Source: Alphaproteobacteria bacterium
Lineage (GTDB): Bacteria; Pseudomonadota; Alphaproteobacteria; SMXQ01
DNA: 64,000 bases
NCBI GenBank assembly: GCA_035714115.1
Contig: DASTMO010000078.1
Location: 42,461 to 106,460, forward strand
Reading direction: 5' to 3'
This document shows, piece by piece, positions 28,067 to 61,270 of this stretch. The notes beneath the pieces were generated by a model. It was not told where the DNA came from and did not search any database. It worked only from the letters and a program-made list of their open reading frames with translations. The translations under genes were made by a program, and so were the position numbers. Positions within the stretch are counted from its first letter, which is position 1; each line of letters starts with the position of its first letter.

Positions 28067-30484
28067 ATGGCGTCGGTTGCAGCGATTTCCCAGCAGATCT
28101 GGGACATGAAGTACCGCCTCAAGGACGCGCAGGGCGTCGCTGTGGATAAATCCATCGAGGGCACCTGGCGCCGCATCGCCGACGCGCTCGCCGAAGCCGA
28201 GCAGCCCGAGGGCCGCAAAGCCTGGGCCGACAAGTTCTACGGCGCGCTGGAAGACTTCGCCTTCCTGCCGGCCGGACGCATCATCGCCGGCGCCGGCACG
28301 GGCCGCTCCGTCACCCTGTTCAACTGCTTCGTGATGGGCACCGTGCCCGACGCCATGGGCGGCATCTTCGCGCACTTGCGCGAAGCGGCGCTGACCATGC
28401 AGCAGGGCGGCGGCATCGGCTACGACTTCTCAACGCTCCGCCCCAAGGGCGCGCCGGTGAAGGGCGTCGGGGCAGACGCCTCGGGCCCGCTCTCCTTCAT
28501 GGACGTGTGGGACGCCATGTGCCGCACCATCATGTCCGCCGGCAGCCGCCGCGGCGCGATGATGGCGACGATGCGCTGCGACCATCCCGACATCGAGGCC
28601 TTCATCGAGGCCAAGCGCGAGCCGGGCCGCCTGCGCATGTTCAACCTCTCGGTGCTGGTCACCGACGCCTTCATGGAAGCGGTGAAGGCCAACCTGCCGT
28701 GGGACCTGACCTTCAACGGCACGGTGTTCCGCACCGTCGAGGCGCGCGGCCTGTGGGACAAGATCATGCACGCCACCTACTCCTACGCGGAGCCGGGCGT
28801 GATCTTCATCGACCGCATCAACCGCCGCAACAACCTGCACTATTGCGAGACGATCAGCGCCACCAACCCCTGCGGCGAGCAGCCGCTGCCGCCCTACGGC
28901 GCTTGCCTGCTCGGCTCGATCAACCTCGCCCGCCTCGTCGTCGATCCCTTCGAGGAGACGGCGCGGCTCGACATGAACCGCCTGCGCAAGCTCGTGCCGC
29001 TCGCCGTGCGCATGATGGACAATGTGGTCGACGTCTCGAAATTCCCGCTCGAGGAGCAGACCCGCGAAGCCCAAGCCAAGCGCCGCATCGGCCTCGGCGT
29101 CACCGGCCTGGCCGACGCTCTCATCATGTGCCGCGCGCGCTACGGCTCGGCCGAGGCGCTGCGCCTGACCGGCGAATGGATGGGCGCGATCGAGCGCGAG
29201 GCTTATTTGGCTTCCACCGAACTGGCGCGTGAGAAGGGCGCTTTCCCGCTGTTCGACAAGGACGCCTATCTCTCGGGCGACACCATTCTCGGCCTCGACG
29301 CCGACGTGCGCGAGGCCATCAATAAGCACGGCATCCGCAACGCGCTCCTGACCTCCATCGCGCCGACCGGCACCATCTCGCTGCTCGCCGACAACGTCTC
29401 GTCGGGCCTCGAGCCGGTGTTCAGCTTTACCTACACGCGCCGCATCCTGCTGCCCGACGGCACGCGCCAGGAAGAGGAGGTGAGCGATTACGCCTACCGC
29501 CTGTTCAAGCGCCTGAAGGGCGACAACGTGCCGCTGCCCGATTATTTCGTCGACGCGCAGGTGCTCAAGCCCGCCGACCATGTGGCGATGCAGGCCGCCG
29601 TGCAGAAGCATGTCGACAGCTCGATCTCCAAGACGATCAACGTGCCCGTCGACATCGACTTCGAGGAATTCAAGGACGTCTACCTGAAGGCTTACGAGAC
29701 CGGCTGCAAGGGCTGCACGACCTACCGGCCGAACGACATCACCGGCTCGGTGCTCGAAGTGAAGCCGGCCAAGGACGCCGAGGAAGGCCAGCAGGAGCTG
29801 CCGCTCGACAAGCCCAAGGCGGCGCGCCATGCCGACCCGTACGAGGCCGGCGGCGTCGTCTACATGACCCAGCCACTCGACCGGCCGGGCGCGCTCGAAG
29901 GCCGCACCTACAAGCTGCGCTGGCCCGAGAGCGAGCATGCCATGTACATCACGATCAACGACGTGGTGCAGGACGGCCGTGTGCGCCCCTTCGAGATTTT
30001 CGTGAACTCGAAGAACATGGAGCATTTCGCTTGGACCGTCGGCCTGACGCGCATGATCTCGGCGGTGTTCCGCCGTGGCGGCGACGTCTCCTTCGTCGTC
30101 GAAGAGCTCAAAGCCGTGTTCGATCCGCGCGGCGGCCAATGGATGGACGGGCGCTATGTGCCGTCATTGCTCGCCGCCATCGGCGACGTAATTGAGAAAC
30201 ATATGATCGCCATCGGCTTCCTGCCCAACCCGCAGGAAAAGCGCGACGGCCTGTTCGACCGCCAGGTGGTGAACCTGAACGAGGCGCGCGGTCACGAAGA
30301 CCATGATCATGGCCACGAGCATCACGGCCACGAGCATCACGGCCACGATCATTCGCACAATCATTCTCAGGGCAAAGCCGCTGATGGCCGTTTCCGCCAA
30401 TGCCCGAAATGCGGCCAGGCCAGCCTGATCAAGCAGGAAGGCTGCGACAGCTGCCTGAGCTGCGCCTACTCGAAGTGCGGGTGA
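28067..30484 (+). CDS. nrdJ: Class II (adenosylcobalamin-dependent) ribonucleotide reductase
   Basis: 805 aa. RNR active-site region NPCGEQPLPPYGACLLGSINL, a C-terminal CPKCG...CDSCLSC zinc ribbon, and a His-rich HEDHDHGHEHHGHEHHGHDHSHNH insertion before it. Confidence 0.9.
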   Translation: MASVAAISQQIWDMKYRLKDAQGVAVDKSIEGTWRRIADALAEAEQPEGRKAWADKFYGALEDFAFLPAGRIIAGAGTGRSVTLFNCFVMGTVPDAMGGIFAHLREAALTMQQGGGIGYDFSTLRPKGAPVKGVGADASGPLSFMDVWDAMCRTIMSAGSRRGAMMATMRCDHPDIEAFIEAKREPGRLRMFNLSVLVTDAFMEAVKANLPWDLTFNGTVFRTVEARGLWDKIMHATYSYAEPGVIFIDRINRRNNLHYCETISATNPCGEQPLPPYGACLLGSINLARLVVDPFEETARLDMNRLRKLVPLAVRMMDNVVDVSKFPLEEQTREAQAKRRIGLGVTGLADALIMCRARYGSAEALRLTGEWMGAIEREAYLASTELAREKGAFPLFDKDAYLSGDTILGLDADVREAINKHGIRNALLTSIAPTGTISLLADNVSSGLEPVFSFTYTRRILLPDGTRQEEEVSDYAYRLFKRLKGDNVPLPDYFVDAQVLKPADHVAMQAAVQKHVDSSISKTINVPVDIDFEEFKDVYLKAYETGCKGCTTYRPNDITGSVLEVKPAKDAEEGQQELPLDKPKAARHADPYEAGGVVYMTQPLDRPGALEGRTYKLRWPESEHAMYITINDVVQDGRVRPFEIFVNSKNMEHFAWTVGLTRMISAVFRRGGDVSFVVEELKAVFDPRGGQWMDGRYVPSLLAAIGDVIEKHMIAIGFLPNPQEKRDGLFDRQVVNLNEARGHEDHDHGHEHHGHEHHGHDHSHNHSQGKAADGRFRQCPKCGQASLIKQEGCDSCLSCAYSKCG

Positions 30485-33869: not shown

Positions 33870-34829
33870 CTAAGCCTGGCCGGCCTTGACTATGCTGCGG
33901 CGAATCTCACGCGTCTTGGCGAACTTCTTCTGCAGCTTATCGCCCTGATCCCAGCGGATCGCGCGCTGCATGGCCGACAAATCCTCATTGAGGCGGCCCA
34001 GCATCTCGAGCACGGCATCCTTGTTGTTCAGGAAGATGTCGCGCCACATCACCGGATCGGAGGCGGCGATGCGGGTGAAATCGCGAAAGCCGCTGGCGGC
34101 GTATTTGATCACTTCGCCGCGCAGATGCTTCTCCAGCTCCGTCGCCGTGCCGACGATGGTGAAGGCGATCAGGTGCGGCAGATGCGAGGTGATCGCCAGC
34201 ACGCGGTCGTGATGCGCCGCGTCCATCACGTCGACGTTCGAGCCGATGGCCTCCCAGAAAGCGCGCAGCTTCGCCGTCGCCTTCGGATCGCCCTTGGGCA
34301 ACGGCGTCAGGATCACCCAGCGACCCACGAACAGTTCGGCGAAGCCAGAGGTCGGCCCGGAATTTTCCGTACCGGCGAGCGGATGGCCGGGCACGAAATG
34401 CGCATGCTTGGGCAGGAACGGCGCCATGTCCTTGACGACCGTCTGCTTGACCGAACCGACGTCGGAAACGATGGCGCCCGGCTCGAGATGCGGGCCGATG
34501 GCTTGAGCCACCGCCTTGCACGCGCCGACCGGCACGCAAACGATGACGAGATCGGCGCCCTTCACGGCCTTGGCCGGATCGGCGACGGCGCTATCGATAA
34601 AGCCCAGCTTCTTGGCGGTGTTGCGCGTCGCGGCCGTGCGCGCCGTGCCGACGATCTCGCCGACCAGGCCGTTCTTCTTCGCCGCCCAGGCGATGGACGA
34701 GCCGATATGGCCGAGGCCGATCAGCGCCAGCTTCTTGAACAGCGGCGCGCGTTTGGCGGCTTTCTTCTTGGCCGGGGCTTTCTTGGCGAGCTTCTTCGCG
34801 GGCTTCTTGGCGGGCTTTTTTACCATCAC
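33870..34829 (-). CDS. tyrC: Cyclohexadienyl/prephenate dehydrogenase with lysine-rich N-terminal tail
   Basis: GLIGLGHIGSS Rossmann motif after an N-terminal MMVKKPAKKPAKKLAKKAPAKKKAAKRAP segment. Confidence 0.8.
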   Translation of the reverse strand: MMVKKPAKKPAKKLAKKAPAKKKAAKRAPLFKKLALIGLGHIGSSIAWAAKKNGLVGEIVGTARTAATRNTAKKLGFIDSAVADPAKAVKGADLVIVCVPVGACKAVAQAIGPHLEPGAIVSDVGSVKQTVVKDMAPFLPKHAHFVPGHPLAGTENSGPTSGFAELFVGRWVILTPLPKGDPKATAKLRAFWEAIGSNVDVMDAAHHDRVLAITSHLPHLIAFTIVGTATELEKHLRGEVIKYAASGFRDFTRIAASDPVMWRDIFLNNKDAVLEMLGRLNEDLSAMQRAIRWDQGDKLQKKFAKTREIRRSIVKAGQA

Positions 34830-41033: not shown

Positions 41034-41447
41034 ATGAGCGAGGCCGACCAGATTATCGCTGCGCTCGGCCTCGCGCCCCATCCTGAAGGCGGATATTTCC
41101 GCGAGACCTGGCGAGATGAAGCGCAACCGCGCGGCCATGGCACGGCAATTTATTATCTGCTGAAGGCAGGGGAAATCTCGCGCTGGCACCGCGTCGATGC
41201 CGCCGAAATCTGGCATTACTACGCCGGCGCAGCCCTGGCGCTCTCCATCGCCGCACCCGACGCCGAAGCCGCGACGCATAAGCTCGGGCCGGACATTCTC
41301 GACGGCGAGCAGCCGCAAATCCTCGTGCCGCCGCATCATTGGCAAAGCGCGCGAAGCCTCGGCGATTGGACGCTGGTCGGCTGCACCGTCTCGCCGGCCT
41401 TCGAGTTCGCCGGCTTCGAGATCGCCGCTAAGGATTGGAATCCTTGA
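41034..41447 (+). CDS. Cupin (DUF985-like) protein
   Basis: ATG 41034 (MSEADQIIAAL) in frame within the 40797..41447 ORF. HPEGGYFRETW is typical of the DUF985 cupin family. Confidence 0.6.
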   Translation: MSEADQIIAALGLAPHPEGGYFRETWRDEAQPRGHGTAIYYLLKAGEISRWHRVDAAEIWHYYAGAALALSIAAPDAEAATHKLGPDILDGEQPQILVPPHHWQSARSLGDWTLVGCTVSPAFEFAGFEIAAKDWNP

Positions 41448-43203
41448 GGCACCATTCGCGCCACAGCGCGCGATAGGCCGACTCAAGTGAGCGCGTGAAG
41501 CCCGCCGCATCCATCAAGGGCGAGGCCGACATGCGCGCGCGCATGCCGCCGCGCAACTCCGCCAATCTCGAACGATCGGCGGCGAGCTTTGCAGCGATAG
41601 CGACATAGTCATCGGCTGTTTGCGCCACCAAATCGCCGAGACCGATGCGCGTCATGAGGCTGGCGCCGACGCGGGCGCAATGGCGGTCGCCCGCCAGCGT
41701 CACCACCGGCACGCCCATCCACAGCGCCTCGCAGGTCGTCGTTGTGCCGTTGTAGGGCAGGCTGTCGAGCGCGACGTCCATCTCGTTATAGAGCGCCATA
41801 TGGCCGCCGTAGCCGCGCACCCGCCCGGCGAAGCCGAGACGTGCCGGATCGATGCCGGCGATGGCGAAGCGCGCCACCACGCCCTGACGCACCTCCGGAT
41901 CGTCGAGGCCGCGGGCCTTCAACAACAGGCGCGAATCCGGCACGGCGAGCAGCAGCTGCGCCCAAAGATCGAGCGTCTCGTCCGAGAGTTTCGGCAGATT
42001 GTTGAAACTGCCGAAGGTGACCGGCCCCGCCGGGCGCGCGGCGACATCCGGCGCGCCCTCGCCCGGCGCGTAGCAGAGAAAGCCGTTCGACAGACGGACG
42101 AGCTTCTCCGTCGCGAAAGCCTCATATCCATCAGGATCGGCGATGGCGTCGGTCAACCGCGCGCCCATCGTGGCGAGACCCGTCGTGTCGGGATAGCCGA
42201 GCCAAGTCACCTGCACCGGCGCAGGCTTGCGCGCGAAGACGCCGAGCCGGTTGCCGGCGGTGTGGCCGGCGAGATCGACCAGGATGTCGATGCCGTCATG
42301 ACGGATCGCCTCGGCGAGCGAGGCGTCGTTCAGCTCGCGCGCATCGCGCCAATGGGCCACCGAGGCGCGCAGCTTGGCGGTGACCGCGTCCGGCTTGGCG
42401 ACATCGGAGTAAGCATAAATCTCGACCGCCGCCGGATCATGCGCCGGCAAGACGCGCGACAGGAAGAAGGCGACCGAATGCATGTGGAAATCGGGCGAGA
42501 CATAGCCGATACGCAAGCGCCGCGCCGGATCGCGTTCGTTGCCATGCGGCGACGCTGCGGGCAATCGTGCGGCGTAAGCCGCGGCTGCGGCGCGCTGCAG
42601 CTCGAACAACTCAAGCCGGTCGGTCATCACGTAATGCGACGAAAGCGCTAGCGTCGACAGCGACGACAGGGCGTTGGGATCGCGCCGTACGGCTTCGCGA
42701 TGGGCGGCCAGGCCTTCGCTCACTTGGCGGGCGTCGATCAATGCCGAGCCCAGCCGCCCGAGCAACGATGCGGAGCTCGGCTCGAGCGCCAGCGCCTTGC
42801 GGCGCGCCGCCACCGCTTCGCTCAGCTTCTCGCGCTGGCGCAGCAGGCTGGCCAGCACCTGCCAGGCCTTCCCGTATTGCGGCGCCAGCGCCACGGCGCG
42901 GCGCAGCAGCGGCTCGGCCTCGATGATTTCGCCGCGTTCGCGGTGGATGTTGGCGAGATTGACCATGAAGTCGGGCTGACGCGGATTGCGCTCGATGGCG
43001 CGCGCCATCAAGGCAACGCCTTCATCGCCCTGACCCGCTTTGCACAAAGCGATGCCGAGCACATGGAGGATGTCGGCATTCTCCGGCTCGGCGGCCAGCA
43101 GCGGCTTCAGACGCACCGCCGCATCGGCGGCATCGCCGCGCTGCAACGCCGCGAGCGCCTGCTGGAAACTCGCCTTGAACGCCGGCCCTGTCGCCAAGAT
43201 CAA
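41428..43203 (-). CDS. TPR-repeat protein with C-terminal O-GlcNAc-transferase-like (GT41) domain
   Basis: 591 aa. N-terminal TPRs, then a C-terminal domain with MGVPVVTLAGDRHCARVGASLMTRIGL, as in SPINDLY/OGT-like bacterial proteins. Confidence 0.75.
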   Translation of the reverse strand: MILATGPAFKASFQQALAALQRGDAADAAVRLKPLLAAEPENADILHVLGIALCKAGQGDEGVALMARAIERNPRQPDFMVNLANIHRERGEIIEAEPLLRRAVALAPQYGKAWQVLASLLRQREKLSEAVAARRKALALEPSSASLLGRLGSALIDARQVSEGLAAHREAVRRDPNALSSLSTLALSSHYVMTDRLELFELQRAAAAAYAARLPAASPHGNERDPARRLRIGYVSPDFHMHSVAFFLSRVLPAHDPAAVEIYAYSDVAKPDAVTAKLRASVAHWRDARELNDASLAEAIRHDGIDILVDLAGHTAGNRLGVFARKPAPVQVTWLGYPDTTGLATMGARLTDAIADPDGYEAFATEKLVRLSNGFLCYAPGEGAPDVAARPAGPVTFGSFNNLPKLSDETLDLWAQLLLAVPDSRLLLKARGLDDPEVRQGVVARFAIAGIDPARLGFAGRVRGYGGHMALYNEMDVALDSLPYNGTTTTCEALWMGVPVVTLAGDRHCARVGASLMTRIGLGDLVAQTADDYVAIAAKLAADRSRLAELRGGMRARMSASPLMDAAGFTRSLESAYRALWREWCLKDSNP

Positions 43204-43922
43204 TACATATGCTGGCCGCCGTTCACCGACAGGGTCGAGCCGGTGATGAAGCCGGCGTCGTCGGCGACGAGGAACAGCACGGCGCGGGCAATTTCATCGG
43301 CGCGGCCCAGACGGCCGACCGGAATGCGCGCGACGATCTTTTCAAGCACGTTGGGCGGCACGGCGCGCACCATGTCGGTGTCGATATAGCCCGGCGCGAT
43401 GGCGTTGACGGTGACGTTCTTCGCCGCGCCTTCCTGGGCCAAGGCTTTGGTGAAGCCGTGGATGCCCGATTTGGCGGCGGCGTAGTTCACCTGGCCATAT
43501 TGGCCGGCCTGACCGTTGATCGAGCCGATGTTGACGATGCGGCCGAAGCTGCGCTCGCGCATGCCGTCGATCACGACGCGCGACATATTGAAGCAGGAGC
43601 CGAGATTGGTGTCGATCACCGCCTGCCAATTCTCCGGCGTCATCTTCACCATGGTGGCATCGCGCGTGATGCCGGCATTGTTGACCAGCACATCGACCGG
43701 CCCCAATTCGGCGACGATCTTGGCGACACCGGCCTGGCATTCGGGAAATTTCGCCACATCCCATTTGTAGGAGGAGATGCCGGTCTCCTTGGTGAAGGCC
43801 GCCGCCGCTTCGTCGTTGCCGGCGTAGACCGCCGCCACCTTATAGCCAGCGTTCTTGAGGGCCAGCGAAATCGCGCCGCCGATACCCCGCGTGCCGCCCG
43901 TCACCACCGCAATGCGCGCCAT
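43200..43922 (-). CDS. phaB: Acetoacetyl-CoA reductase
   Basis: 240 aa SDR. VTGGTRGIG and YAAAK motifs. 4-bp overlap with the upstream ORF. Confidence 0.9.
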   Translation of the reverse strand: MARIAVVTGGTRGIGGAISLALKNAGYKVAAVYAGNDEAAAAFTKETGISSYKWDVAKFPECQAGVAKIVAELGPVDVLVNNAGITRDATMVKMTPENWQAVIDTNLGSCFNMSRVVIDGMRERSFGRIVNIGSINGQAGQYGQVNYAAAKSGIHGFTKALAQEGAAKNVTVNAIAPGYIDTDMVRAVPPNVLEKIVARIPVGRLGRADEIARAVLFLVADDAGFITGSTLSVNGGQHMY

Positions 43923-43979: not shown

Positions 43980-45152
43980 TTAGCGCTCGACGCAGATGGC
44001 GATGCCCATGCCGCCGCCGATGCAGAGCGTGGCGAGGCCTTTCTTGGCGTCGCGCTTCTGCATCTCATGCAGCAGCGACACCAGGATGCGCGTGCCCGAT
44101 GCACCGATCGGATGGCCGAGCGCGATGGCGCCGCCGTTGACATTCACCTTCGCCGGATCCCAGCCGAGATCCTTGTTCACCGCGCAGGCCTGCGCCGCGA
44201 AGGCCTCGTTGGCCTCGATCAGGTCGAGATCGCCGATTTTCCAACCGGCCTTTTCCAGCGCGCGCTTGGTCGCCGGGATCGGGCCGGAGCCCATCACCGC
44301 CGGATCGACGCCGGCCTGCGCCCAGGCGCGGATCACTGCGAGCGGCTTGACGCCACGCTTGGCAGCATCGCTATCGCTCATCAGCACCACCGCGGCGGCG
44401 CCGTCGTTGATGCCCGAGGCGTTGCCCGCCGTCACCGTGCCGTCCTTGTTGAAGGCCGGACGCAGCTTGCCGAGCGTGTCGATGGTGGTGCCATGGCGCG
44501 GGAACTCGTCGACGGCGAAAATCTCCTCGCCTTTGCGCGAGACCAGGGTGATCGGCAGGATCTCATCCTTGAAACGGTCGGCCTTCTGCGCCGCTTCGGC
44601 CTTCTGCTGGCTGGCAGCGGCGAAAGCGTCCTGATCGGCGCGGCTGATCTGCCATTTGGCGGCGACATTCTCCGCCGTGATGCCCATGTGATAGCCGTTG
44701 AAGGCATCCCACAGGCCGTCGCGGATCATGCTGTCGACGAACGACAGATCGCCCATCTTCTGGCCGTTGCGCAAATGCGCGACATGGGGCGCGAGGCTCA
44801 TGTTCTCCTGGCCGCCGGCGACGACGATCGACGCGTCGCCGCTGCGGATCGCCTGAAAGCCGAGCGCGACGGATTTGATGCCCGAGCCGCAGACATGATT
44901 GACCCCGTAGGCCGGCACGCCGTCAGGCAGGCCCGCCTTGATGCTCGCCTGACGCGCCGGGTTTTGGCCTTGGCCGGCCGTCAGCACCTGGCCGAGGACG
45001 ACCTCAGAGACTTCCTCTGGCGCAGTCTTGGCGCGCGTCAGCGCCTCGGCGATCACCTTGGCGCCGAGCTCATGAGCCGGCAGGGCCGACAATTTGCCGG
45101 AGAAGGCGCCGATGGCCGTGCGAACGGCGCCGGCGATAACGATGTCGGCCAT
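43980..45152 (-). CDS. phaA: Acetyl-CoA acetyltransferase (beta-ketothiolase)
   Basis: Start at [17 protein letters not shown]. Thiolase motifs NHVCGSGIK and GGGMGIA. Confidence 0.9.
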
Positions 45153-45315
45153 GAAAACCTCCTGGGGCGCGGCGAGACAAAGATTGCGAACCGCCAGTTT
45201 AGAAGAGCGCGCGGCGGACACAAGACGATCGCGCATTGCGCGCGCTTTCGTGACGCGCGAATGACAAGCTTGTCCAAGCCATTTGCCTAAGCCGCAGGCA
45301 TGTTGCGACGCGGTG

Positions 45316-46674
45316 TCAGCGGCGTTTGGTTGCGGGCGTCTTGCGAGCGGGAGCCTTCTTGGCCGGCGTTTTCTTGGCCGGCGTTTTCTTGGCCGGCGCC
45401 TTCGCGGTTTTCGTCTTCGGCGTCATGCCGTCGAGCCAGTCGGCCAGCGGCTCCCAGCTTTGCGCGCGAGCCTGACGGCCGACGATCATCGCCACATGGC
45501 CGCTCGGCACCTTGACCGCCGTCGCCTTCGGCAAGGCAGCGGCGAGGGCCGCCGAAGAGGCCAGCGGCACGATCTTGTCCTGCTGCGGCATCAGCAAAAG
45601 CGCCGGCTTGTCGCAGCGCGCAGGATCGATCGTCTCGCCGGCGACGCGCCAGGCGCCGTTCATCGGCGCGTTCTGGCCGTACCAGCCGACGAGGCATTCG
45701 GCGGCGACCTTGGCGGCGAGCGGCACGCCATCGTTCACCCAATCTTCCAGCGCGACGAACAATTCGCCGTTTTCTCCGGCCTGTTGGCTCTTGGCGAAGG
45801 CGCGGTATTTGCGCCCGACCAGATAGGGATCGAGGCTGGCGAACATGGCCTGCAGCAGATCGACGGGAAATTCCGCCAAACTTGCGAAGGCCGCCGTCAA
45901 CGTCGCCGCATTGGCGGCATCGAGCGGCGCTTGGATCGGCGCGCCCTCCGCCTGGAAATCCCAGGGCGTCGCCAGCAATGCAAGCGCCGAGACCTTGTTC
46001 GGATGCAGCTGCGCCAAGGCCAAAGCGAGATTGCCGCCCATGCAATAGCCGATCACCGCCAGAGGCTTGCCCGCAGCTTTCGCCGCTGCGTCGAGCGCGC
46101 CCGCCAATCGCCCGGCGATGTAGTCGGTGAGATCGAAGCCGCGCTCGATCTCGCCCGGCGCGTCCCAATCGACCAGCAACGGGCGATGGCCGCGCGCGGC
46201 GAGATAGCGCAGCAAGCTGGTCTTGCCGGTGAGGTCGAGCACATGGCCGCGATTGACCAGCGACGGCACGACGAGAACCGTCGAACCCGTATTGCGCGTC
46301 CCGTAATCGAGCAGGCGCGTTGTGCCCTCGCGCCAGAGGACCGGCGGCTCTTTCAGCGAGCGGCGATAGGGATGGGCGCGATAGGCCGAGACGCCGGCGG
46401 CGAATTCGAGAAAGCGGTCTTCGCCGGCATGATCGACGGCGGCGGCAAGATCGTCACCGCTTACCGCGCCGAGAGCCTTTTGCAGCGCTGCCGCCTCGGC
46501 GGCGAGCGGCGCCGGCCAGGGAAAGCCGCCGCTGGCGATCAGCGGCAGAGCGGCGCGCAGGCTTGCCCAAGCCGTTCCCGCGCTCGCCAGATGCAGCGCC
46601 AGCGGGCGCGGACCCAGCCGATGCGCTGCCCGGCTGGGCTTTGGGCTTTTCTTCTGTGCGGGACGGCGCGCCAT
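45316..46674 (-). CDS. phaC: Poly(3-hydroxyalkanoate) synthase PhaC (catalytic core; N-terminus apparently displaced into another frame), with C-terminal lysine-rich AKP-repeat tail
   Basis: Lipase box with Cys nucleophile ([11 protein letters not shown]). LIASGG and [13 protein letters not shown] match the LIESGG and PPCINKYYILDL motifs as I recall them from Cupriavidus necator (Ralstonia eutropha) PhaC, i.e. alignment against a remembered, not searched, reference. Asp/His downstream. Tail is [26 protein letters not shown]. Confidence 0.7.
45354..45405 (-). repeat. 15-bp tandem DNA repeat (ggccggcgttttctt, about 3 copies) encoding the PAKKT repeats of the PhaC tail
   Basis: Direct repeats visible at 45361-45405. 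Confidence 0.5.
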
Positions 46675-46675
46675 G

Positions 46676-46954
46676 GGACGGGACAGAACCTGCGAATGGA
46701 GGCTGCGACAGCGCCGCGAGACTATGGCCTGCGGCGGCGACGAACCAGAGCTTCAGGGCATCCAGCGCCGCGCCGGACATGGAGCCGGACAGGACGCCGG
46801 TCACGGCAGCCAAATCGGGGGCATCCTGTCCCGGCGACGCGCTTTTTGCGGCAAACGCGAAGGCCGCCTGACGCTCCCAAAGATCGAAAAGAGCTTTCGC
46901 AAATGCGGCGATTTCGCCGTTTTGGCCGCCTTTTTCGCCCGATTCGTCGCTCAT
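46676..46954 (-). other. ORF likely encoding the displaced N-terminal ~93 aa of phaC (the frame changes near 46675), alternatively a separate small gene
   Basis: In ORF 46454..46954 the translation looks protein-like only up to about 46676, exactly where the phaC-core ORF starts in the +1 frame. 93 aa plus the core would restore a class-I-length PhaC. Confidence 0.3.
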
Positions 46955-47135
46955 TTGCCAAGTTTATCAGTGTGCCGAGCCATTCGCCAGGACGATGCCG
47001 CGGCGCAGCGAAAGCTTGCGCGATGCAGCATTTTCACGCCATCTTGAAGGCTGTTCGACCGGGGAAGCGTCCAGAGAGCCCGCGCCGGTCCCAGGTTTCA
47101 CTCTGTGATTTCACGCAGCGCCCGAGGACGATCCC

Positions 47136-47729
47136 ATGACCGACACCCCCGGCACGGACAGCCCCGTCATCACCATCAAGAAATACGCCAACCGCCGTCT
47201 CTACAATACGGCGACATCGAGCTACGTCACGCTCGAGCATCTGGCGCAAATGGTGAAAGAGGGCGTCGACTTCGTGGTGCTCGACGCCAAGACCAACGAA
47301 GACCTCACCCGCCAGGTGCTGACGCAGATCATCATCGAGGAAGAGGCCAAGGGCGAGAATCTGCTGCCGATCAAATTCCTGCGCCAGATGATCGGCCTTT
47401 ACGGCCACGGCATGCAGGGTCTGGTGCCGCGCTATCTCGACCTCAGCATGGAATCCTTCTCGCGCAACCAGCAGCAGATCCGCAGCTATATGGAAGAGAC
47501 CTTCTCCGGCCTCTTTCCGTTCGGCGACAAGCTGAACGAAATGGGCAAACGCAACATGGCGATGTTCGAAGACGCCATGAAGATGTTCTCGCCCTTTCCG
47601 GCCGCGCAAGGCGGCGCGACCCGCCCGGCGGACGACGGCGAGGGTGAATCGGCCGAGATCCGCGATCTCAAGGCCAAGCTGGACACGCTGCAGAACCAGC
47701 TCGATCAGCTGCTGCGCGCCAAGAAATAG
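47136..47729 (+). CDS. phaR: Polyhydroxyalkanoate synthesis repressor PhaR
   Basis: VITIKKYANRRLYNTATSSYVTLE is the PhaR DNA-binding signature. 197 aa. Confidence 0.9.
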   Translation: MTDTPGTDSPVITIKKYANRRLYNTATSSYVTLEHLAQMVKEGVDFVVLDAKTNEDLTRQVLTQIIIEEEAKGENLLPIKFLRQMIGLYGHGMQGLVPRYLDLSMESFSRNQQQIRSYMEETFSGLFPFGDKLNEMGKRNMAMFEDAMKMFSPFPAAQGGATRPADDGEGESAEIRDLKAKLDTLQNQLDQLLRAKK

Positions 47730-57356: not shown

Positions 57357-58544
57357 ATGAGCCGCGCGCCGCGCCGCACCGCCCGCAACAAGCGCCCGAA
57401 AAAGACCGGGGCGCCGGCCGCCACGCGCCTGATCCGCACCGCGCGCGAGGAGGATATTCCCGCCCTGTTGATGATCGAGCATCAGTCCTTCCCGACCGAC
57501 CGCATCTCGCAACGCTCTTTCCGCTACATGCTGACCAAGGGCAACGCCTGCACCCTGGTCGAGGCCGACCGTGCGAGCGGCGAGATCCGCGGCTACGCCA
57601 TGGTCTCCTTCAACCGCTCGACCTCGCTGGCGCGGCTCTATTCGATCGCGGTGGCGCCGCGCTGGCGCGCCAAGGGGGTCGGCCGCGCCCTGCTGCGCGC
57701 TGCCGAAGAGGCCGCGCGCGAGAAATCCGCCGCCTACATGCGCCTGGAAGTGCGCGCCGAAGACAAAGACACCCAGGCCTTCTATCGCAGCATGGGCTAC
57801 AAGCCCTTCGGCACCCACAGCCAGTATTATGACGACGATGCCGACGCCGTCCGCATGGACAAGATCATCGCGCCCGGCCTCGCCCCCAATGTCACCCGCG
57901 TGCCTTACTACCGCCAGCGCCTCGACTTCACCTGCGGCCCGGCGGCGGTGATGATGGCGATGCATGCGCTCGACCGCGACAGGCCGATGACGGCGATCGA
58001 GGAGCTCCGCATCTGGCGCGAGGCGACCACGATCTTCATGACCCAGGGCCATGGCGGCACCAGCGCGCAAGGCCTGGCCCTCGCGGCTTGGAAGCGCGGC
58101 TTCGATGTCGAGCTGCATACCAACGAGCGCGGCGTGCCCTTCGTCGAGAGCGTGCGCAGCGAGCTCAAGCGCGACGTGATCCGCGCGGTCCACCAGGACT
58201 TTCTCGACGAATTGGCGAAGACCAAAGTGCAGCTCGTGCCGCGCGCCCTGAGCTTCAAGCAGCTCCGCGAGAAGTTCGATGCCGGCGGCATCCCCATCGT
58301 GCTGGTCTCCTCCTACCAGTTCGACCGGCGCAAGGAACTGCATTGGGTTGTTGTGACCGGCTACGACGACACCTATGTTTACGTCCACGATCCTTTCGTC
58401 GACGTCGCCGAAGCCAAAAGCCAGACCGACCGCATGCATATTCCGGTCCCGCAACGCATTTTCGACCGCATGGCGCGCTACGGCTCGCGCCATCGCAAGG
58501 CCGCGCTGATCGTCAAGCCGCGCCGCAAGACGAGCGCGCCATGA
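57357..58544 (+). CDS. GNAT N-acetyltransferase fused to a C39-like papain-fold cysteine peptidase domain
   Basis: N-terminal GNAT (RLYSIAVAPRWRAKGVGRALL, motif A). C-terminal DFTCGPAAVMMAMHAL (catalytic Cys) and HWVVVTGYDD (His). Confidence 0.75.
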   Translation: MSRAPRRTARNKRPKKTGAPAATRLIRTAREEDIPALLMIEHQSFPTDRISQRSFRYMLTKGNACTLVEADRASGEIRGYAMVSFNRSTSLARLYSIAVAPRWRAKGVGRALLRAAEEAAREKSAAYMRLEVRAEDKDTQAFYRSMGYKPFGTHSQYYDDDADAVRMDKIIAPGLAPNVTRVPYYRQRLDFTCGPAAVMMAMHALDRDRPMTAIEELRIWREATTIFMTQGHGGTSAQGLALAAWKRGFDVELHTNERGVPFVESVRSELKRDVIRAVHQDFLDELAKTKVQLVPRALSFKQLREKFDAGGIPIVLVSSYQFDRRKELHWVVVTGYDDTYVYVHDPFVDVAEAKSQTDRMHIPVPQRIFDRMARYGSRHRKAALIVKPRRKTSAP

Positions 58545-60136
58545 CGCAGCACGTCATCGTCGTCGACCGCGAGGAAGACTTCAAATGGCCGGCGGAGAAC
58601 CGCCAGGTGCTGACGGCCAAGGAGTTCGTCGGCAACATCCGCGGCAAAGACGGCGGCAAGAAATTTCCCGCTTCGGCGCGCGTCATCAATCTCTGCCGCG
58701 ATTACAGCTACCTTTCGCTCGGCTATTACTCCTCGCTGCTCGCCGAAGCGCGCGGCCAGAAAGTGATTCCCTCCGTCGAGGTGCTGCTCGACCTCAATTG
58801 GAAGCGGCTCTATCAGAGCGATCTGCCGGAGCTGAACGACCTGCTGCGCAAGACCTTCTCCGGCAGCGACGAAGATCCGGTCGGCTTCACCCTGCATCTG
58901 TTCTTCGGCGCCGCCGACGACGTGCGGCTGCGCGAGCTGGCGCGGCGCATCTTCGACCTGTTCCGCGCGCCGATGCTGGCGGTGGATTTGCGCAACGGCA
59001 AGGAGGGCTGGGAGATCACGGCCATCCGGCCGATCTCGATCAAGGATCTGCCCGCCGGGCAGGAAGACGCTTTCGCCGTCGCGCTGGATCGCTATACACG
59101 CAGCGCCTGGCGGGCCGCCAAGCCGGACCAGCCGGCGGTCTATTCCATCGCCATCCTGCACAATCCGCAGGAGCGGCTACCGCCGTCGAACGAGCGCGCG
59201 CTGAAAAAATTCATCAAGATCGGCGAGCAGATGGGCGTCGAGATGGAGCTCATCACGCGCAAGGATTACAGCCGCCTGCCGGAATATGACGCGCTGTTCA
59301 TCCGCGAGACGACCGACCTCGACGACCACACCTATCGCTTCGCGCGCAAGGCCGAGGACGAAGGCATGCCGGTGATCGACAGCCCGCAGGCCATCCTCAA
59401 ATGCACCAACAAGATCTATCTCGCCGAGCTGCTCACCGCCAACGGCGTGCCGACGCCGCGCACGCTGACGCTGGATCGCCGCCAGCTCGATCGCGTCGAG
59501 GCCGAGTTCGGCTATCCGGTCGTCATCAAGATCCCCGACGGCTCCTTCTCGCGCGGCGTGCACAAGGTCGAGAACCGCGAGCAGCTCGAGGAGCTGGCCG
59601 GCAAGCTGTTCGAGGAATCTGACCTGATCCTCGCCCAGGAATTCATGCAGACCGAATACGACTGGCGCGTCGGCGTGCTCAACTACAAGCCGATCTTCGT
59701 CTGCCAGTACTTCATGGCCAAGGGCCATTGGCAGGTGCTGAAGTACCATAACGGCGGCCAGACCGATTACAGCGAGGGCGACGACCGCTCCTTCTCCGTC
59801 GAGGACGCCCCCCGCGAGATCGTCGATATCGCGGTGAAGGCCGCCAGCCTGATCGGCGATGGTTTGCACGGCATCGACATCAAGCAGACGGCAAACGGCG
59901 TCTATGTCATCGAGATCAACGACAACCCGAACATCGACGCCGGCGTCGAGGACGCGGTGCTGAAGGACGATCTCTATCGCCTGATCATTCGCGATTTCGT
60001 CCGCCGCATCGAAAAGCGCAACGCCGCCCTGCCTGCCGCCGCCCGCCATGTGACGCAAGCTCCGGCCCAAGCTCCCGCGCAGCCCGCCGCCGAAGAGGCC
60101 GAGCCAGCTCCCCCGGCGCGCAGCGCCGCATCCTAG
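58541..60136 (+). CDS. RimK-type ATP-grasp ligase with N-terminal RLAN (RimK-like ATP-grasp N-terminal) domain
   Basis: ATG 58541 overlapping the upstream stop. The C-terminal half has ATP-grasp motifs (VVIKIPDGSFSRGVHKV, DWRVGVLN, HGIDIKQTANGVYVIEINDNPN). The N-terminal ~230 aa (LCRDYSYLSLGYYSSLLAEARG) matches RLAN. Confidence 0.8.
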   Translation: MTQHVIVVDREEDFKWPAENRQVLTAKEFVGNIRGKDGGKKFPASARVINLCRDYSYLSLGYYSSLLAEARGQKVIPSVEVLLDLNWKRLYQSDLPELNDLLRKTFSGSDEDPVGFTLHLFFGAADDVRLRELARRIFDLFRAPMLAVDLRNGKEGWEITAIRPISIKDLPAGQEDAFAVALDRYTRSAWRAAKPDQPAVYSIAILHNPQERLPPSNERALKKFIKIGEQMGVEMELITRKDYSRLPEYDALFIRETTDLDDHTYRFARKAEDEGMPVIDSPQAILKCTNKIYLAELLTANGVPTPRTLTLDRRQLDRVEAEFGYPVVIKIPDGSFSRGVHKVENREQLEELAGKLFEESDLILAQEFMQTEYDWRVGVLNYKPIFVCQYFMAKGHWQVLKYHNGGQTDYSEGDDRSFSVEDAPREIVDIAVKAASLIGDGLHGIDIKQTANGVYVIEINDNPNIDAGVEDAVLKDDLYRLIIRDFVRRIEKRNAALPAAARHVTQAPAQAPAQPAAEEAEPAPPARSAAS

Positions 60137-60208
60137 GTCCACGCGCAGCGCCGCATCCTAGGTCCACGCGCAGCGCGGCCTCGTAACAGCTCTGGGTAAC
60201 AGCTCTGG
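60118..60208 (+). repeat. Tandem duplications at the 3' end of the RimK-like gene: 25-bp unit x2.5 (60118-60180) and 13-bp unit x2 (60183-60208)
   Basis: gcgcagcgccgcatcctaggtccac is repeated directly. The first copy contains the stop codon. gtaacagctctgg is repeated directly. Confidence 0.7.
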
Positions 60209-60268: not shown

Positions 60269-61270
60269 ATGCTCGCCGCGCTCCGCAACAGCTTCCTTCT
60301 GGCCCTCGCCGGTCTCGTCGCCTTTGCCAATACGGCAGACGCTCAACAGAAAGTCAGCTTCGGCACCGACTGGCGCGCGCAGGCCGAGCACGGCGGCTTC
60401 TATCAGGCCGTCGCCAAAGGCTTTTATGCCGCGCGCGGCCTCGACGTCTCGCTGCGTCAGGGCGGCCCGCAGATCAACCACGCGCAATTGCTCGCCGCCG
60501 GCCGCGTCGACTTCAGCCTGTCGTCGAACAGCTTCATCGCGCTCAATTACACGCGCGAGCGCATCCCGATGGTCACCGTCGCCGCGCTGTTCCAGAAGGA
60601 TCCGGCGGTGCTGATCGCCCATCCCGGCCAGGGCAACGACACGCTCGAGCAACTGCGCGGCAAGCCGATCTTCATCGGCAGCGACACCCGCGTCGGCTCG
60701 TGGAATTTCCTGCGCGCCCGCTTCGACTACGACAACGCGCAGATCCGCCCTTACACCTTCAGCATCGCGCCCTTCCTCGCCAACAAGGCGACGATCCAGC
60801 AGGGCTATCTCGGCAGCGAGCCGTTCCTGATGGAGCAACAAGGCGTCAAGCCGGTGGTGATGCTGCTCGCCGATGCCGGCTATTCGAGCTACGGCGCGTT
60901 GATCTCGACTTCGATGAAAATGGTCCATGAAAAGCCGCAGATCGTGCAGGCTTTCGTCGATGCCAGCATCGAGGGCTGGTACGACTATCTCTATGGTGAC
61001 CCGGCGCCGGCGAACGCGCTCATCAAGAAGGACAACCCGGAGATGACCGACGACTTGCTCGCTTACGGGCGCGGCAAGATGATCGAATACGGCATCCTCG
61101 ATTCGGGCGACGCGGCCGAGCTGGGCATCGGCGCCATGAGCAACGCGCGCTGGAAGGGCTTCTTCGACATGATGGTGGGCGAAGGGCTCTATCCCAAGGA
61201 GATGGACGTCACCGAGGGCTATGACCTGCAATTCGTCAACAAGCGCGTCGGCGTCCAGTTGAAGAAGTAG
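60269..61270 (+). CDS. ABC transporter substrate-binding protein, NMT1/THI5-like (nitrate/sulfonate/taurine family)
   Basis: 333 aa with a signal peptide (ANTADAQ). Fold family resemblance. Confidence 0.75.
   Translation: MLAALRNSFLLALAGLVAFANTADAQQKVSFGTDWRAQAEHGGFYQAVAKGFYAARGLDVSLRQGGPQINHAQLLAAGRVDFSLSSNSFIALNYTRERIPMVTVAALFQKDPAVLIAHPGQGNDTLEQLRGKPIFIGSDTRVGSWNFLRARFDYDNAQIRPYTFSIAPFLANKATIQQGYLGSEPFLMEQQGVKPVVMLLADAGYSSYGALISTSMKMVHEKPQIVQAFVDASIEGWYDYLYGDPAPANALIKKDNPEMTDDLLAYGRGKMIEYGILDSGDAAELGIGAMSNARWKGFFDMMVGEGLYPKEMDVTEGYDLQFVNKRVGVQLKK

What the first reader, a model, noticed from the sequence alone, without database searches (positions are those of the whole stretch)
45316..45420. 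Histone-H1-like lysine-rich AKP/PAKK tail on PhaC, and a similar tail on TyrC, each encoded by DNA tandem repeats
PhaC ends in [33 protein letters not shown]. The cyclohexadienyl dehydrogenase at 33870-34829 begins with MMVKKPAKKPAKKLAKKAPAKKKAAKRAP. Such PAKKA-type tails are known DNA/nucleoid-binding modules on PHB-granule proteins (PhaM, PhaF). Here the synthase itself carries one, and so does an unrelated aromatic amino-acid enzyme. The PhaC tail is encoded by a 15-bp tandem repeat (45354-45405), which makes it length-variable by slippage.
Basis: partly seen in the sequence, partly recalled or inferred. Interest (0 to 1): 0.5.

Follow-up and report, generated by a model that had tools for sequence, protein, structure and literature searches.

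The report
Lysine-rich disordered tails on two enzymes
A PHB-synthase-like enzyme and an unrelated tyrosine-pathway enzyme in an uncultured alphaproteobacterium each carry a real, conserved, histone-H1-like lysine-rich tail whose length changes between strains by whole repeat units; it may stick the enzymes to DNA, but that is untested.

Summary
ORF 45316-46674(-) ends in a 35-residue tail rich in Lys, Ala, Pro and Thr, encoded partly by a perfect 15-bp x2.9 repeat. TyrC (33870-34826/34829, -) starts with a 28-residue Lys/Ala/Pro tail over a 12-bp x4.2 repeat. These are the only two such stretches in six frames of the 64 kb.

Length change by slippage is shown directly. Near-identical strains carry 1, 2 or 3 AKKTP units, and the window lacks exactly 15 bp relative to two other assemblies. 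TyrC alleles differ by one 4-residue unit.

The tails are not random. All 17 closest PhaC homologues (at least 68% identity) keep tails of 38-93 residues, net charge +13 to +42, ending in a conserved basic motif such as KRR, KKRRS or KKRRR. Of the 17 closest TyrC homologues, 15 keep a basic N-tail. A syntenic relative has tails on the same two proteins only.

The "PhaC" is a divergent synthase. It looks like the Rhodospirillum rubrum PhaC1 type: phaR is divergent from phaC1-phaA-phaB, the Cys-Asp-His triad is intact, and PhaC is the best fold match. It scores below the NCBIfam class I and III cut-offs.

Tethering to the nucleoid in cis, as PhaM and PhaF do in trans, is plausible but unproven. 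The TyrC tail argues for a more general polyanion-binding or lineage-wide trait.

Verdict: modestly interesting, a new member of a known kind.

The parts
45316..46674 (-). PhaC-family gene (452 aa), apparently of the R. rubrum PhaC1 type: a divergent PHA synthase-like alpha/beta hydrolase
   Evidence: ORF. Pfam Abhydrolase_1. NCBIfam class III PhaC 153.9 bits against a cut-off of 365. Best PDB sequence and fold matches are PhaC. GYCMGG box; C211, D366 and H393 are invariant in A1. The start is supported by homologue N-termini.
45319..45423 (-). C-terminal Lys/Ala/Pro/Thr-rich tail, residues 418-452 ([35 protein letters not shown])
   Evidence: AF2 pLDDT is 36-53 with no secondary structure from residue 421. 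Conserved as a K-rich tail in all 17 closest homologues.
45356..45398 (-). Perfect 15-bp tandem repeat (GCCAAGAAAACGCCG on the coding strand, encoding AKKTP), 2.9 copies; the slippage-prone core of the tail
   Evidence: TRF. Alleles with 1, 2 and 3 units are 447, 452 and 457 aa. A 15-bp indel separates the window from L081 and L082 in an otherwise identical alignment.
46615..46674 (-). Basic, disordered N-terminal segment of the same protein ([20 protein letters not shown], net +7)
   Evidence: Mean pLDDT 44 for residues 1-10 and 58 for residues 11-20. Relatives carry AKP-like N-termini of variable length.
33870..34829 (-). tyrC, prephenate/arogenate (cyclohexadienyl) dehydrogenase; probable start is ATG 34826, the ORF's first start codon is GTG 34829
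   Evidence: NCBIfam NF005694 at 482 bits against a cut-off of 409; Pfam PDH_N and PDH_C. TGATG overlap with the upstream aminotransferase stop.
34743..34826 (-). N-terminal Lys/Ala/Pro tail of TyrC (MVKKPAKKPAKKLAKKAPAKKKAAKRAP), placed before the Rossmann GxGxxG
   Evidence: Basic N-tails occur in 15 of the 17 closest homologues. In-frame GC3 is 0.82.
34764..34817 (-). Imperfect 12-bp tandem repeat (encoding PAKK/LAKK), 4.2 copies
   Evidence: TRF. Alleles of 314 and 318 aa differ by one 4-residue unit (P0246, P0248 against P0247).
43980..45152 (-). phaA (acetyl-CoA acetyltransferase), downstream in the same operon
   Evidence: Synteny in 71 of 80 genomes.
43200..43922 (-). phaB (acetoacetyl-CoA reductase)
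   Evidence: TIGR01829 at 351 bits against a cut-off of 302. Synteny in 59 of 80 genomes.
47136..47729 (+). phaR (PHB-responsive repressor), divergent from the phaC1-type gene
   Evidence: ORF. PHB_acc_N and PHB_acc on the identically placed gene in L081 and L084. Synteny in 76 of 80 genomes.

Best explanation
Both tails are genuine, translated, intrinsically disordered polycationic extensions with a histone-H1/PAKKA-like Lys-Ala-Pro(-Thr) composition. They are built and resized by replication slippage of in-frame 15-bp and 12-bp units. Their presence and charge, though not their sequence, are kept across an uncultured alphaproteobacterial clade.

On the PhaC1-type synthase, the C-tail and a shorter basic N-terminus most likely act as non-specific polyanion-binding arms. 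These would hold the synthase, and so nascent PHB granules, on the nucleoid. That is the job PhaM (Ralstonia) and PhaF (Pseudomonas) do in trans, here built into the enzyme in cis. On TyrC the same physical property is expected, but its physiological purpose is unknown.

Shown here: the tails are real, repeat-encoded, polymorphic in units, conserved in the clade, predicted disordered, and attached to a PhaC-fold enzyme in a phaR/phaC1AB locus.

Inferred: that the tails bind anything, and that the binding partner is DNA.
For: Reality and translation:
- In-frame GC3 is 0.80 and 0.82, against 0.48-0.68 in the other frames.
- All observed indels are multiples of 3.
- The tyrC start overlaps the upstream stop as TGATG.

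Slippage:
- PhaC alleles are 447, 452 and 457 aa, carrying 1, 2 and 3 AKKTP units.
- The 3-unit allele appears in two independent assemblies.
- The indel is exactly 15 bp, with identical flanks against the 3-unit alleles L081 and L082.

Selection rather than drift:
- All 17 closest PhaC1-type homologues keep tails of 38-93 aa.
- Summed over those tails there are 267 K, 106 R and only 20 D+E in 926 residues. All end in a basic motif such as KRR, KKRRS or KKRRR.
- The K:R ratio of 2.5:1 reverses the proteome's 0.53:1.
- A 75%-identical syntenic relative has tails on the same two proteins and nowhere else in about 33 kb.
- Other lineages of the same PhaC1-type family carry Arg-rich basic tails, in 19 of 80 genomes and 68 of 120 proteins. 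The C-terminus is therefore a recurrent site for a basic appendage.

Disorder: AF2 gives mean pLDDT 81 for the whole model, but only 36-53 for residues 421-452, and no secondary structure there.

Synthase identity.

Precedent for function:
- Four lysines in the PAKKA motifs of PhaM attach PHB granules to the nucleoid.
- The H1-like C-terminal domain of PhaF binds DNA and segregates granules.
- PAKKA repeats on Ku and Hlp interact with DNA.
- The tail alone gives weak, sub-threshold matches to Rv3852-family and Hc2 H1-like nucleoid proteins.
Against: - No binding was or could be tested here.
- The same kind of tail on TyrC, an amino-acid enzyme with no granule to partition, shows the tail is not PHB-specific in this lineage.
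- Cultured members of the family (Azospirillum, Magnetospirillum) lack the tail, so it is dispensable for the enzyme.
- Copy number varies between near-identical strains, so exact length is not constrained.
- The genome has other in-frame pentapeptide repeats of no obvious function, GQNQQ and HGHEH.
- Whether this genome also has a class I PhaC, or PhaM/PhaF-like adaptors, is unknown. Only about 73 kb of it was seen.
- NCBI's annotation of the same MAG omits the TyrC tail.
Confidence: 0.45

Rival explanations
1. The tails are neutral or nearly neutral low-complexity expansions. Slippage-prone in-frame repeats at protein termini are tolerated because they do not disturb the folded enzyme, and they have no binding role.
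For: - Unit-number polymorphism exists between near-identical strains.
- Tail sequences diverge fast, and lengths range from 38 to 93 aa.
- Tails occur on two unrelated enzymes.
- Other in-frame 15-bp repeats are present in the window.
- The tail is absent from cultured relatives.
Against: - Tails are retained in all 17 closest PhaC1-type and 15 of the 17 closest TyrC homologues, even though each Lys codon is one mutation from a stop codon.
- Acidic residues are almost absent, and the C-terminal basic motif is conserved.
- Lys is preferred over Arg, against the proteome trend.
- Tails sit on the same two proteins only in a diverged syntenic relative.
Confidence: 0.25
2. The tails bind polyphosphate or another non-DNA polyanion such as RNA, ribosomes or acidic phospholipids. 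They would then co-localise the enzymes with polyP granules or membranes rather than with the nucleoid, as reported for AlgP on polyP granules.
For: AlgP, with an H1-like KPAA-repeat C-terminal domain homologous to that of PhaF, localises to polyP granules and spaces them. The polycationic composition of the tails does not discriminate between polyanions. The tail alone also gives a faint match to the Lys-rich end of a ValRS model.
Against: There is no evidence here for polyP genes near either locus. For PHB-related proteins, the documented partner of such tails is DNA.
Confidence: 0.15
3. The TyrC extension is not part of the protein. Translation would start at the CTG at 34742, as in NCBI's 290-aa model. 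Alternatively, the A-rich 5' codons serve mainly to keep the start region unstructured for translational coupling.
For: NCBI's annotation of the same MAG (HEU0071814.1, P0245) begins MFKKLALIG. Most TyrC orthologues elsewhere have no extension.
Against: - CTG is a rare start codon, and no Shine-Dalgarno-like sequence is visible before it on reading the sequence.
- The ATG overlaps the upstream stop codon as TGATG.
- The extension stays open, in frame and basic in 15 of the 17 closest homologues, despite sequence turnover and 12-bp indels.
- In-frame GC3 is 0.82, against 0.48-0.56 out of frame.
Confidence: 0.07

Closest known systems
PhaM of Ralstonia eutropha / Cupriavidus necator (PHB granule-nucleoid adaptor with C-terminal PAKKA motifs)
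   Same: Both have a Lys/Ala/Pro C-terminal tail, and the window tail contains a literal PAKKA. In the PhaM-PhaC1 complex the tail is physically linked to a PHA synthase. The tail lysines attach granules to the nucleoid.
   Different: PhaM is a separate phasin-like protein that binds and activates PhaC1 in trans. Here the tail is fused to the synthase-like enzyme itself. There is no PhaM-like domain and no evidence of activation.
PhaF (Pseudomonas putida) and AlgP (P. aeruginosa), with H1-like KPAA/AAKP-repeat C-terminal domains
   Same: All are intrinsically disordered, tandemly repeated, Lys-Ala-Pro-rich C-terminal domains. PhaF and AlgP tether storage granules (PHA, polyP) and space or segregate them. 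The AlgP repeat region is a mutational hot spot.
   Different: The PhaF and AlgP tails are much longer: the AlgP C-terminal domain is 195 aa and contains a 154-aa KPAA repeat region. They sit on non-enzymatic helical proteins. The window tails are 28-35 aa on enzymes. The repeat units differ (AKKTP and PAKK against KPAA).
PAKKA-repeat tails of mycobacterial Hlp (HupB) and M. smegmatis Ku, and the N-terminal repeats of Deinococcus HU
   Same: These are lineage-specific, rapidly evolving Lys-rich low-complexity termini that are absent from close relatives. They are proposed to have evolved repeatedly.
   Different: Those host proteins already bind DNA. Here the hosts are metabolic enzymes with no known nucleic-acid function.
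Rhodospirillum rubrum PhaC1 (Rru_A0275) in the phaC1-phaA-phaB operon
   Same: The locus architecture is the same: phaR is divergent from phaC1-phaA-phaB. PhaC1 is strongly divergent from the class I PhaC2 and PhaC3. In R. rubrum it contributes to PHB, which is lost completely only in the phaC1 phaC2 double mutant.
   Different: No direct sequence comparison with Rru_A0275 was made. Cultured relatives of the family (Azospirillum, Magnetospirillum) have no Lys-rich tail.

Membership tests
PHA synthase (PhaC) superfamily | Lipase-box-like G-X-C-X-G with a catalytic Cys | tested here: met
   GYCMGG is present and C211 is invariant in 27 homologues. It aligns to the Cys box of solved PhaCs, GFCVGG in 5hz2 and GYCIGG in 9knj.
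PHA synthase (PhaC) superfamily | Cys-Asp-His catalytic triad conserved | tested here: met
   C211, D366 (QQDKIVP) and H393 (SGHVAMIVG) are invariant. They align with REDHIVP and SGHIAGVIN of 5hz2.
PHA synthase (PhaC) superfamily | PhaC fold as the closest solved structure | tested here: met
   The AF2 model has pLDDT 81. The 14 best Foldseek PDB hits are all PhaC (9knl, 5xav, 5hz2, 5t6o), with E from 7e-17 to 5e-14.
Class I / class III PhaC (NCBIfam TIGR01838 / TIGR01836) | Score above the curated family cut-off | tested here: not met
   Class III scores 153.9 bits against a cut-off of 365.3. Class I scores 98.3 against 622.65. Class II scores 37.8 against 855.4. No PhaE-like partner is present: the overlapping ORF166 has no family hit and is not conserved.
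PHA synthase (PhaC) superfamily | Polymerises (R)-3-hydroxyacyl-CoA | not testable with these tools
   Support is by context only (phaA, phaB, phaR adjacent) and by R. rubrum genetics for the syntenic PhaC1.
R. rubrum PhaC1-type synthase | Gene order with phaR divergent from phaC1-phaA-phaB | tested here: met
   In 80 genome loci, PhaR is present in 76, PhaA in 71 and PhaB in 59, in the same order and orientation. The same layout is described for R. rubrum.
R. rubrum PhaC1-type synthase | Direct orthology to Rru_A0275 by sequence | not tested
   The R. rubrum sequence was not among the 80 loci kept and could not be fetched.
PAKKA / histone-H1-like Lys-rich low-complexity tails | Terminal, Lys-Ala-Pro-rich, acid-free tract made of short tandem repeats | tested here: met
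   Composition is, repeats and clade statistics.
PAKKA / histone-H1-like Lys-rich low-complexity tails | Intrinsic disorder | tested here: met
   For residues 421-452, pLDDT is 36-53 with no secondary structure. This is a prediction only.
PAKKA / histone-H1-like Lys-rich low-complexity tails | Non-specific DNA binding | not testable with these tools
This rests on analogy to PhaM, PhaF, AlgP, Ku and Hlp.
Curated H1-like nucleoid protein families (Pfam HC2, NCBIfam Rv3852_fam / histone_lik_HC2) | Score above the family cut-off | tested here: not met
   The tail alone scores 28.5 bits on Rv3852_fam against a cut-off of 100, 15.9 on HC2 against 40, and 12.7 on Hc2 against 135. The resemblance is compositional only.
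PhaM / PhaF granule-nucleoid adaptors | Phasin-like granule-binding domain joined to the Lys-rich tail | tested here: not met
   No phasin, PhaM or PhaF family hit on either protein at the thresholds used (Pfam E <= 0.001; NCBIfam E <= 0.01). The tail is joined to an enzyme core instead. It may work like these adaptors but is not a member of the family.
Prephenate/arogenate (cyclohexadienyl) dehydrogenase TyrC | Score above the NCBIfam equivalog cut-off, with PDH_N and PDH_C domains | tested here: met
   NF005694 scores 482 bits against a cut-off of 409 over residues 28-318. PDH_N and PDH_C are both present. The tail lies outside the model.

The most novel reading that the evidence does not exclude
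In this uncultured alphaproteobacterial clade the nucleoid, or another polyanionic scaffold, is used as a docking surface for selected metabolic enzymes through short, evolvable H1-like tails. For the PhaC1-type synthase, this makes granule initiation and partitioning adaptor-free: the PhaM/PhaF function is built into the enzyme in cis. The slippage-prone repeat number would tune binding strength between strains.
Probability: 0.15. Interest if true: 0.6.

Novelty: new member of a known kind. Interest (0 to 1): 0.35.

Why it matters
If the tail tethers the synthase to DNA, the granule-to-nucleoid link known from PhaM and PhaF can be achieved by about 35 residues fused to the enzyme. That would be a third, independent solution to spacing and inheriting storage granules. 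It would also be a compact tag for engineering PHB granule number and size.

The natural 1, 2 and 3-unit alleles form a ready-made series for testing how tail length affects binding.

The TyrC case matters for annotation. NCBI's annotation of this MAG starts the protein at a rare CTG codon and so leaves out a lineage-specific N-terminal tail. Such features are therefore under-counted in public records.

If the tails prove functionless, the case is still a clean example of slippage-driven low-complexity growth held at fixed positions.

Tried and rejected
- Tail-only search of the 5.8-billion-protein database. The first query was too short. A 42-aa natural allele returned only two meaningless hits. 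This gave no view of which other families carry such tails.
- Tail-only Pfam and NCBIfam scans gave only sub-threshold compositional matches: Rv3852_fam, HC2 and the end of a ValRS model.
- Walking along the sister MAG contig to sample more of the proteome. The right side gave about 9 kb more with no further tails. The left side failed.
- ORF166 (46454..46954) as a PhaE-like or phasin partner. It has no family hits. It overlaps the well-supported phaC1 start. It is matched only in L001, over the overlap. Rejected as spurious.
- A second PhaC in the window. tblastn with the catalytic core finds none.
- A promoter and terminator scan of 45100-47200 found nothing above shuffled expectation.
- My first tail-extraction regex failed and was replaced.
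- Literature searches found no paper describing a Lys-rich tail on a PhaC. This is a negative result in an incomplete library, not proof of novelty.
Full report
**1. Observation**

The ORF at 45316..46674 on the minus strand (452 aa) ends ...[41 protein letters not shown]. The last 35 residues (nt 45319..45423) are 31% Lys, 23% Ala, 20% Thr, 17% Pro and 9% Arg, with no acidic residue. Tandem Repeats Finder reports a perfect 15-bp repeat of 2.9 copies at 45356..45398. On the coding strand this is GCCAAGAAAACGCCG, encoding AKKTP.

The ORF at 33870..34829 (minus strand) begins MMVKKPAKKPAKKLAKKAPAKKKAAKRAP and lies over an imperfect 12-bp repeat of 4.2 copies at 34764..34817.

Lys makes up 3.8% and Arg 7.2% of 47 window ORFs. 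The binomial probabilities of the tail Lys counts are about 7e-8 and 3e-10. A six-frame scan for K/A/P/T-rich 25-mers finds only these two places in the 64 kb. This holds with relaxed thresholds too. The same scan finds none in 853 kb of related loci from other genomes.

**2. Are the tails translated?**

- Third-position GC in the tail frames is 0.80 and 0.82, as in the genome's genes (0.78-0.92). It is 0.48-0.68 in the other two frames.
- For the PhaC-like protein the tail is simply the end of a well-supported ORF.
- For TyrC, the ATG at 34826 overlaps the stop of the upstream aminotransferase gene as TGATG. Other gene callers start there (P0247, 318 aa).
- NCBI's annotation of the same MAG (HEU0071814.1, 290 aa) instead starts at residue 30, which is a CTG codon at 34742 (and the sequence).
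- The extension stays open, in frame and basic in 15 of the 17 closest homologues, although its sequence turns over. The two exceptions are 290-aa start-call variants.

I conclude that the tail is part of the protein, and I put about 7% on the alternative.

**3. What the host proteins are**

TyrC is unambiguous. It scores 482 bits on NCBIfam NF005694 against a cut-off of 409, and has PDH_N and PDH_C domains. It sits in an apparent operon of chorismate mutase, aminotransferase and tyrC.

The "PhaC" needs more care.

- Pfam sees only a generic alpha/beta hydrolase.
- NCBIfam class III PhaC scores 153.9 bits against a cut-off of 365, and class I scores 98 against 623. It is therefore not a canonical class I or III synthase.
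- Its best solved-structure sequence matches are PhaCs, with E from 7e-17 to 2e-12.
- An AlphaFold model (pLDDT 81, pTM 0.81) has PhaC structures as its top 14 fold matches.
- The GxCxG box (GYCMGG) and the residues C211, D366 and H393 are invariant across 27 homologues. They align with the catalytic motifs of 5hz2.
- The locus is phaR (47136..47729, +) divergent from this gene, followed by phaA and phaB. In 80 species-representative genomes carrying a homologue, PhaR is alongside in 76, PhaA in 71 and PhaB in 59, in the same order. These genomes include Azospirillum, Magnetospirillum, Stellaceae, Kiloniellales and Dongiaceae.

This is the layout described for Rhodospirillum rubrum phaC1-phaA-phaB with divergent phaR. 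There, PhaC1 is only 14-18% identical to the class I paralogues. PhaC2 is the dominant synthase, and PHB is lost completely only in the phaC1 phaC2 double mutant. I therefore call the window gene a PhaC1-type synthase by synteny. I did not compare it directly with the R. rubrum sequence. No second PhaC is present in the window, and the rest of the genome was not available.

**4. Slippage is demonstrated, not just plausible**

The 90%-identity cluster of the window protein has four members, of 447, 452, 452 and 457 aa. Their tails differ only by having 1, 2, 2 and 3 AKKTP units. The 3-unit allele occurs in two independent assemblies, GCA_044226095.1 and SRR28480388. At the DNA level the window lacks exactly one 15-bp unit relative to them, with identical flanks.

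TyrC alleles of 314 and 318 aa differ by one PAKK or LAKK unit. The N-terminus of the PhaC1-type protein is also basic and disordered. In relatives it is AKP-like and varies in length.

**5. Distribution**

All 17 closest PhaC1-type homologues (68-100% identity) have Lys-rich C-tails of 38-93 residues (median 53) with net charge +13 to +42. Summed over the 17 tails there are 267 K, 106 R and 20 D+E in 926 residues. Each tail ends in a basic motif such as KRR, KKRRS or KKRRR. The K:R ratio of 2.5 is the reverse of the proteome's 0.53.

More distant members often carry shorter Arg-rich tails, for example RKRPRKRRG. These make up 68 of the top 120 proteins and 19 of 80 genomes. The other 60 of the 80 genomes, including Azospirillum and Magnetospirillum, have essentially none.

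For TyrC, basic N-tails are present in 15 of the 17 closest homologues. They are sporadic elsewhere and absent from cultured taxa such as Oceanibaculum, Allostella and Hyphomicrobium.

At least three relatives appear to have both tailed genes on one contig (matching contig lengths). In one of them, about 33 kb of syntenic DNA at roughly 75% identity shows K/A/P-rich stretches on the same two proteins only. The tails are therefore clade-specific, fixed in position and conserved in charge, while free in sequence and length.

**6. Mechanism**

Retention in every close homologue, exclusion of acidic residues, the preference for Lys and the conserved C-terminal motif all argue that the tails are kept by selection for a polycationic, disordered arm.

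The best-documented role for such arms is non-specific DNA binding. The lysines in the PAKKA motifs of PhaM attach PHB granules to the nucleoid. The H1-like C-terminal domain of PhaF does the same for PHA granules. PAKKA repeats on Ku and Hlp interact with DNA.

The most likely reading for the PhaC1-type enzyme is a cis-fused nucleoid tether. I put this at about 0.45.

Three things hold the confidence down:
- The same tail is found on TyrC, which has no granule to partition.
- The tail is absent from cultured family members.
- The repeat number is polymorphic.

The rivals are:
- Near-neutral low-complexity growth (0.25). This genome also has in-frame GQNQQ and HGHEH pentapeptide repeats.
- Binding to polyP or another polyanion, as for AlgP (0.15).
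- Non-translation of the TyrC extension (0.07).

**7. Comparison and novelty**

The tail belongs to a well-known kind, the PAKKA / H1-like Lys-rich low-complexity terminus. It is not a member of any curated H1-like family: the tail-only scores are far below the cut-offs. It is also not a PhaM or PhaF homologue, because there is no phasin-like domain.

What is new is the host. One is a PHA-synthase-family enzyme and the other an aromatic amino-acid dehydrogenase, neither with a known nucleic-acid function. I found no paper describing a Lys-rich tail on a PhaC, but the library is incomplete.

I rate it a new member of a known kind, with interest 0.35. It gives a concrete and cheaply testable hypothesis for PHB cell biology. 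Lys-rich tails on bacterial proteins are familiar, though, and nothing functional is shown.

Noticed in passing
window 34742 and 34826: NCBI's annotation of the same MAG (HEU0071814.1, 290 aa) starts TyrC at a CTG codon and so removes the Lys-rich tail. Other gene callers keep the ATG start that includes the tail. NCBI's start call (possibly guided by homology) hides this lineage-specific extension.
   Followed up: partly
window 46615-46674: The N-terminus of the PhaC1-type protein is also basic and predicted disordered ([20 protein letters not shown], net +7). In relatives it is AKP-like (for example MAPRRKAPAAKAAAKKPAAKTAAKQK) and differs by a 9-residue indel between close strains.
   Followed up: partly
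window 18723-18777: An in-frame 15-bp tandem repeat of 3.7 copies encodes GQNQQ units inside a DUF4175 protein (16690-19299).
   Followed up: partly
window 30306-30352: An in-frame 15-bp tandem repeat of 3.1 copies encodes a His-rich HGHEH tract near the C-terminus of a ribonucleotide reductase (28067-30484), just before a Cys-rich end.
   Followed up: partly
window 60117-60208: A perfect 25-bp x2.4 repeat is followed by a perfect 13-bp x2 repeat. They lie at the 3' end of, and beyond, an ORF (58088-60136) that corresponds by position to the RimK/ATP-grasp gene in sister-MAG locus L086 (not itself scanned), and upstream of an ORF (60269-61270) that corresponds by position to the NMT1-family gene in L086. 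Their function is unknown.
   Followed up: no
window 41428-43203: A gene with TPR repeats and a GT41 (O-GlcNAc-transferase-like) domain overlaps the phaB stop by 4 bp. A syntenic clade relative (L084) has it in the same place, 10 bp after phaB. tblastn found only one weak, opposite-strand match in the 80 other genome loci. It may be co-transcribed with the pha operon.
   Followed up: partly
window 46454-46954: A 166-aa ORF overlaps the phaC1-type start by 220 nt. It has no family hit and is not conserved, so it is probably spurious and not a PhaE-like or phasin gene.
   Followed up: yes
window 57357-58544: A GNAT + DUF3335 (peptidase C39-like) fusion protein has mixed Lys/Arg basic N- and C-termini. 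These are not AKP-type.
   Followed up: no
L009, L016, L034, L042 and other loci (C-terminus of the PhaC1-type gene): Stellaceae and other lineages carry short Arg-rich C-terminal tails (for example RRRRRKR, RPRPRRPAGRR) on the same enzyme family. The C-terminus is therefore a recurrent site for basic appendages of differing composition.
   Followed up: partly
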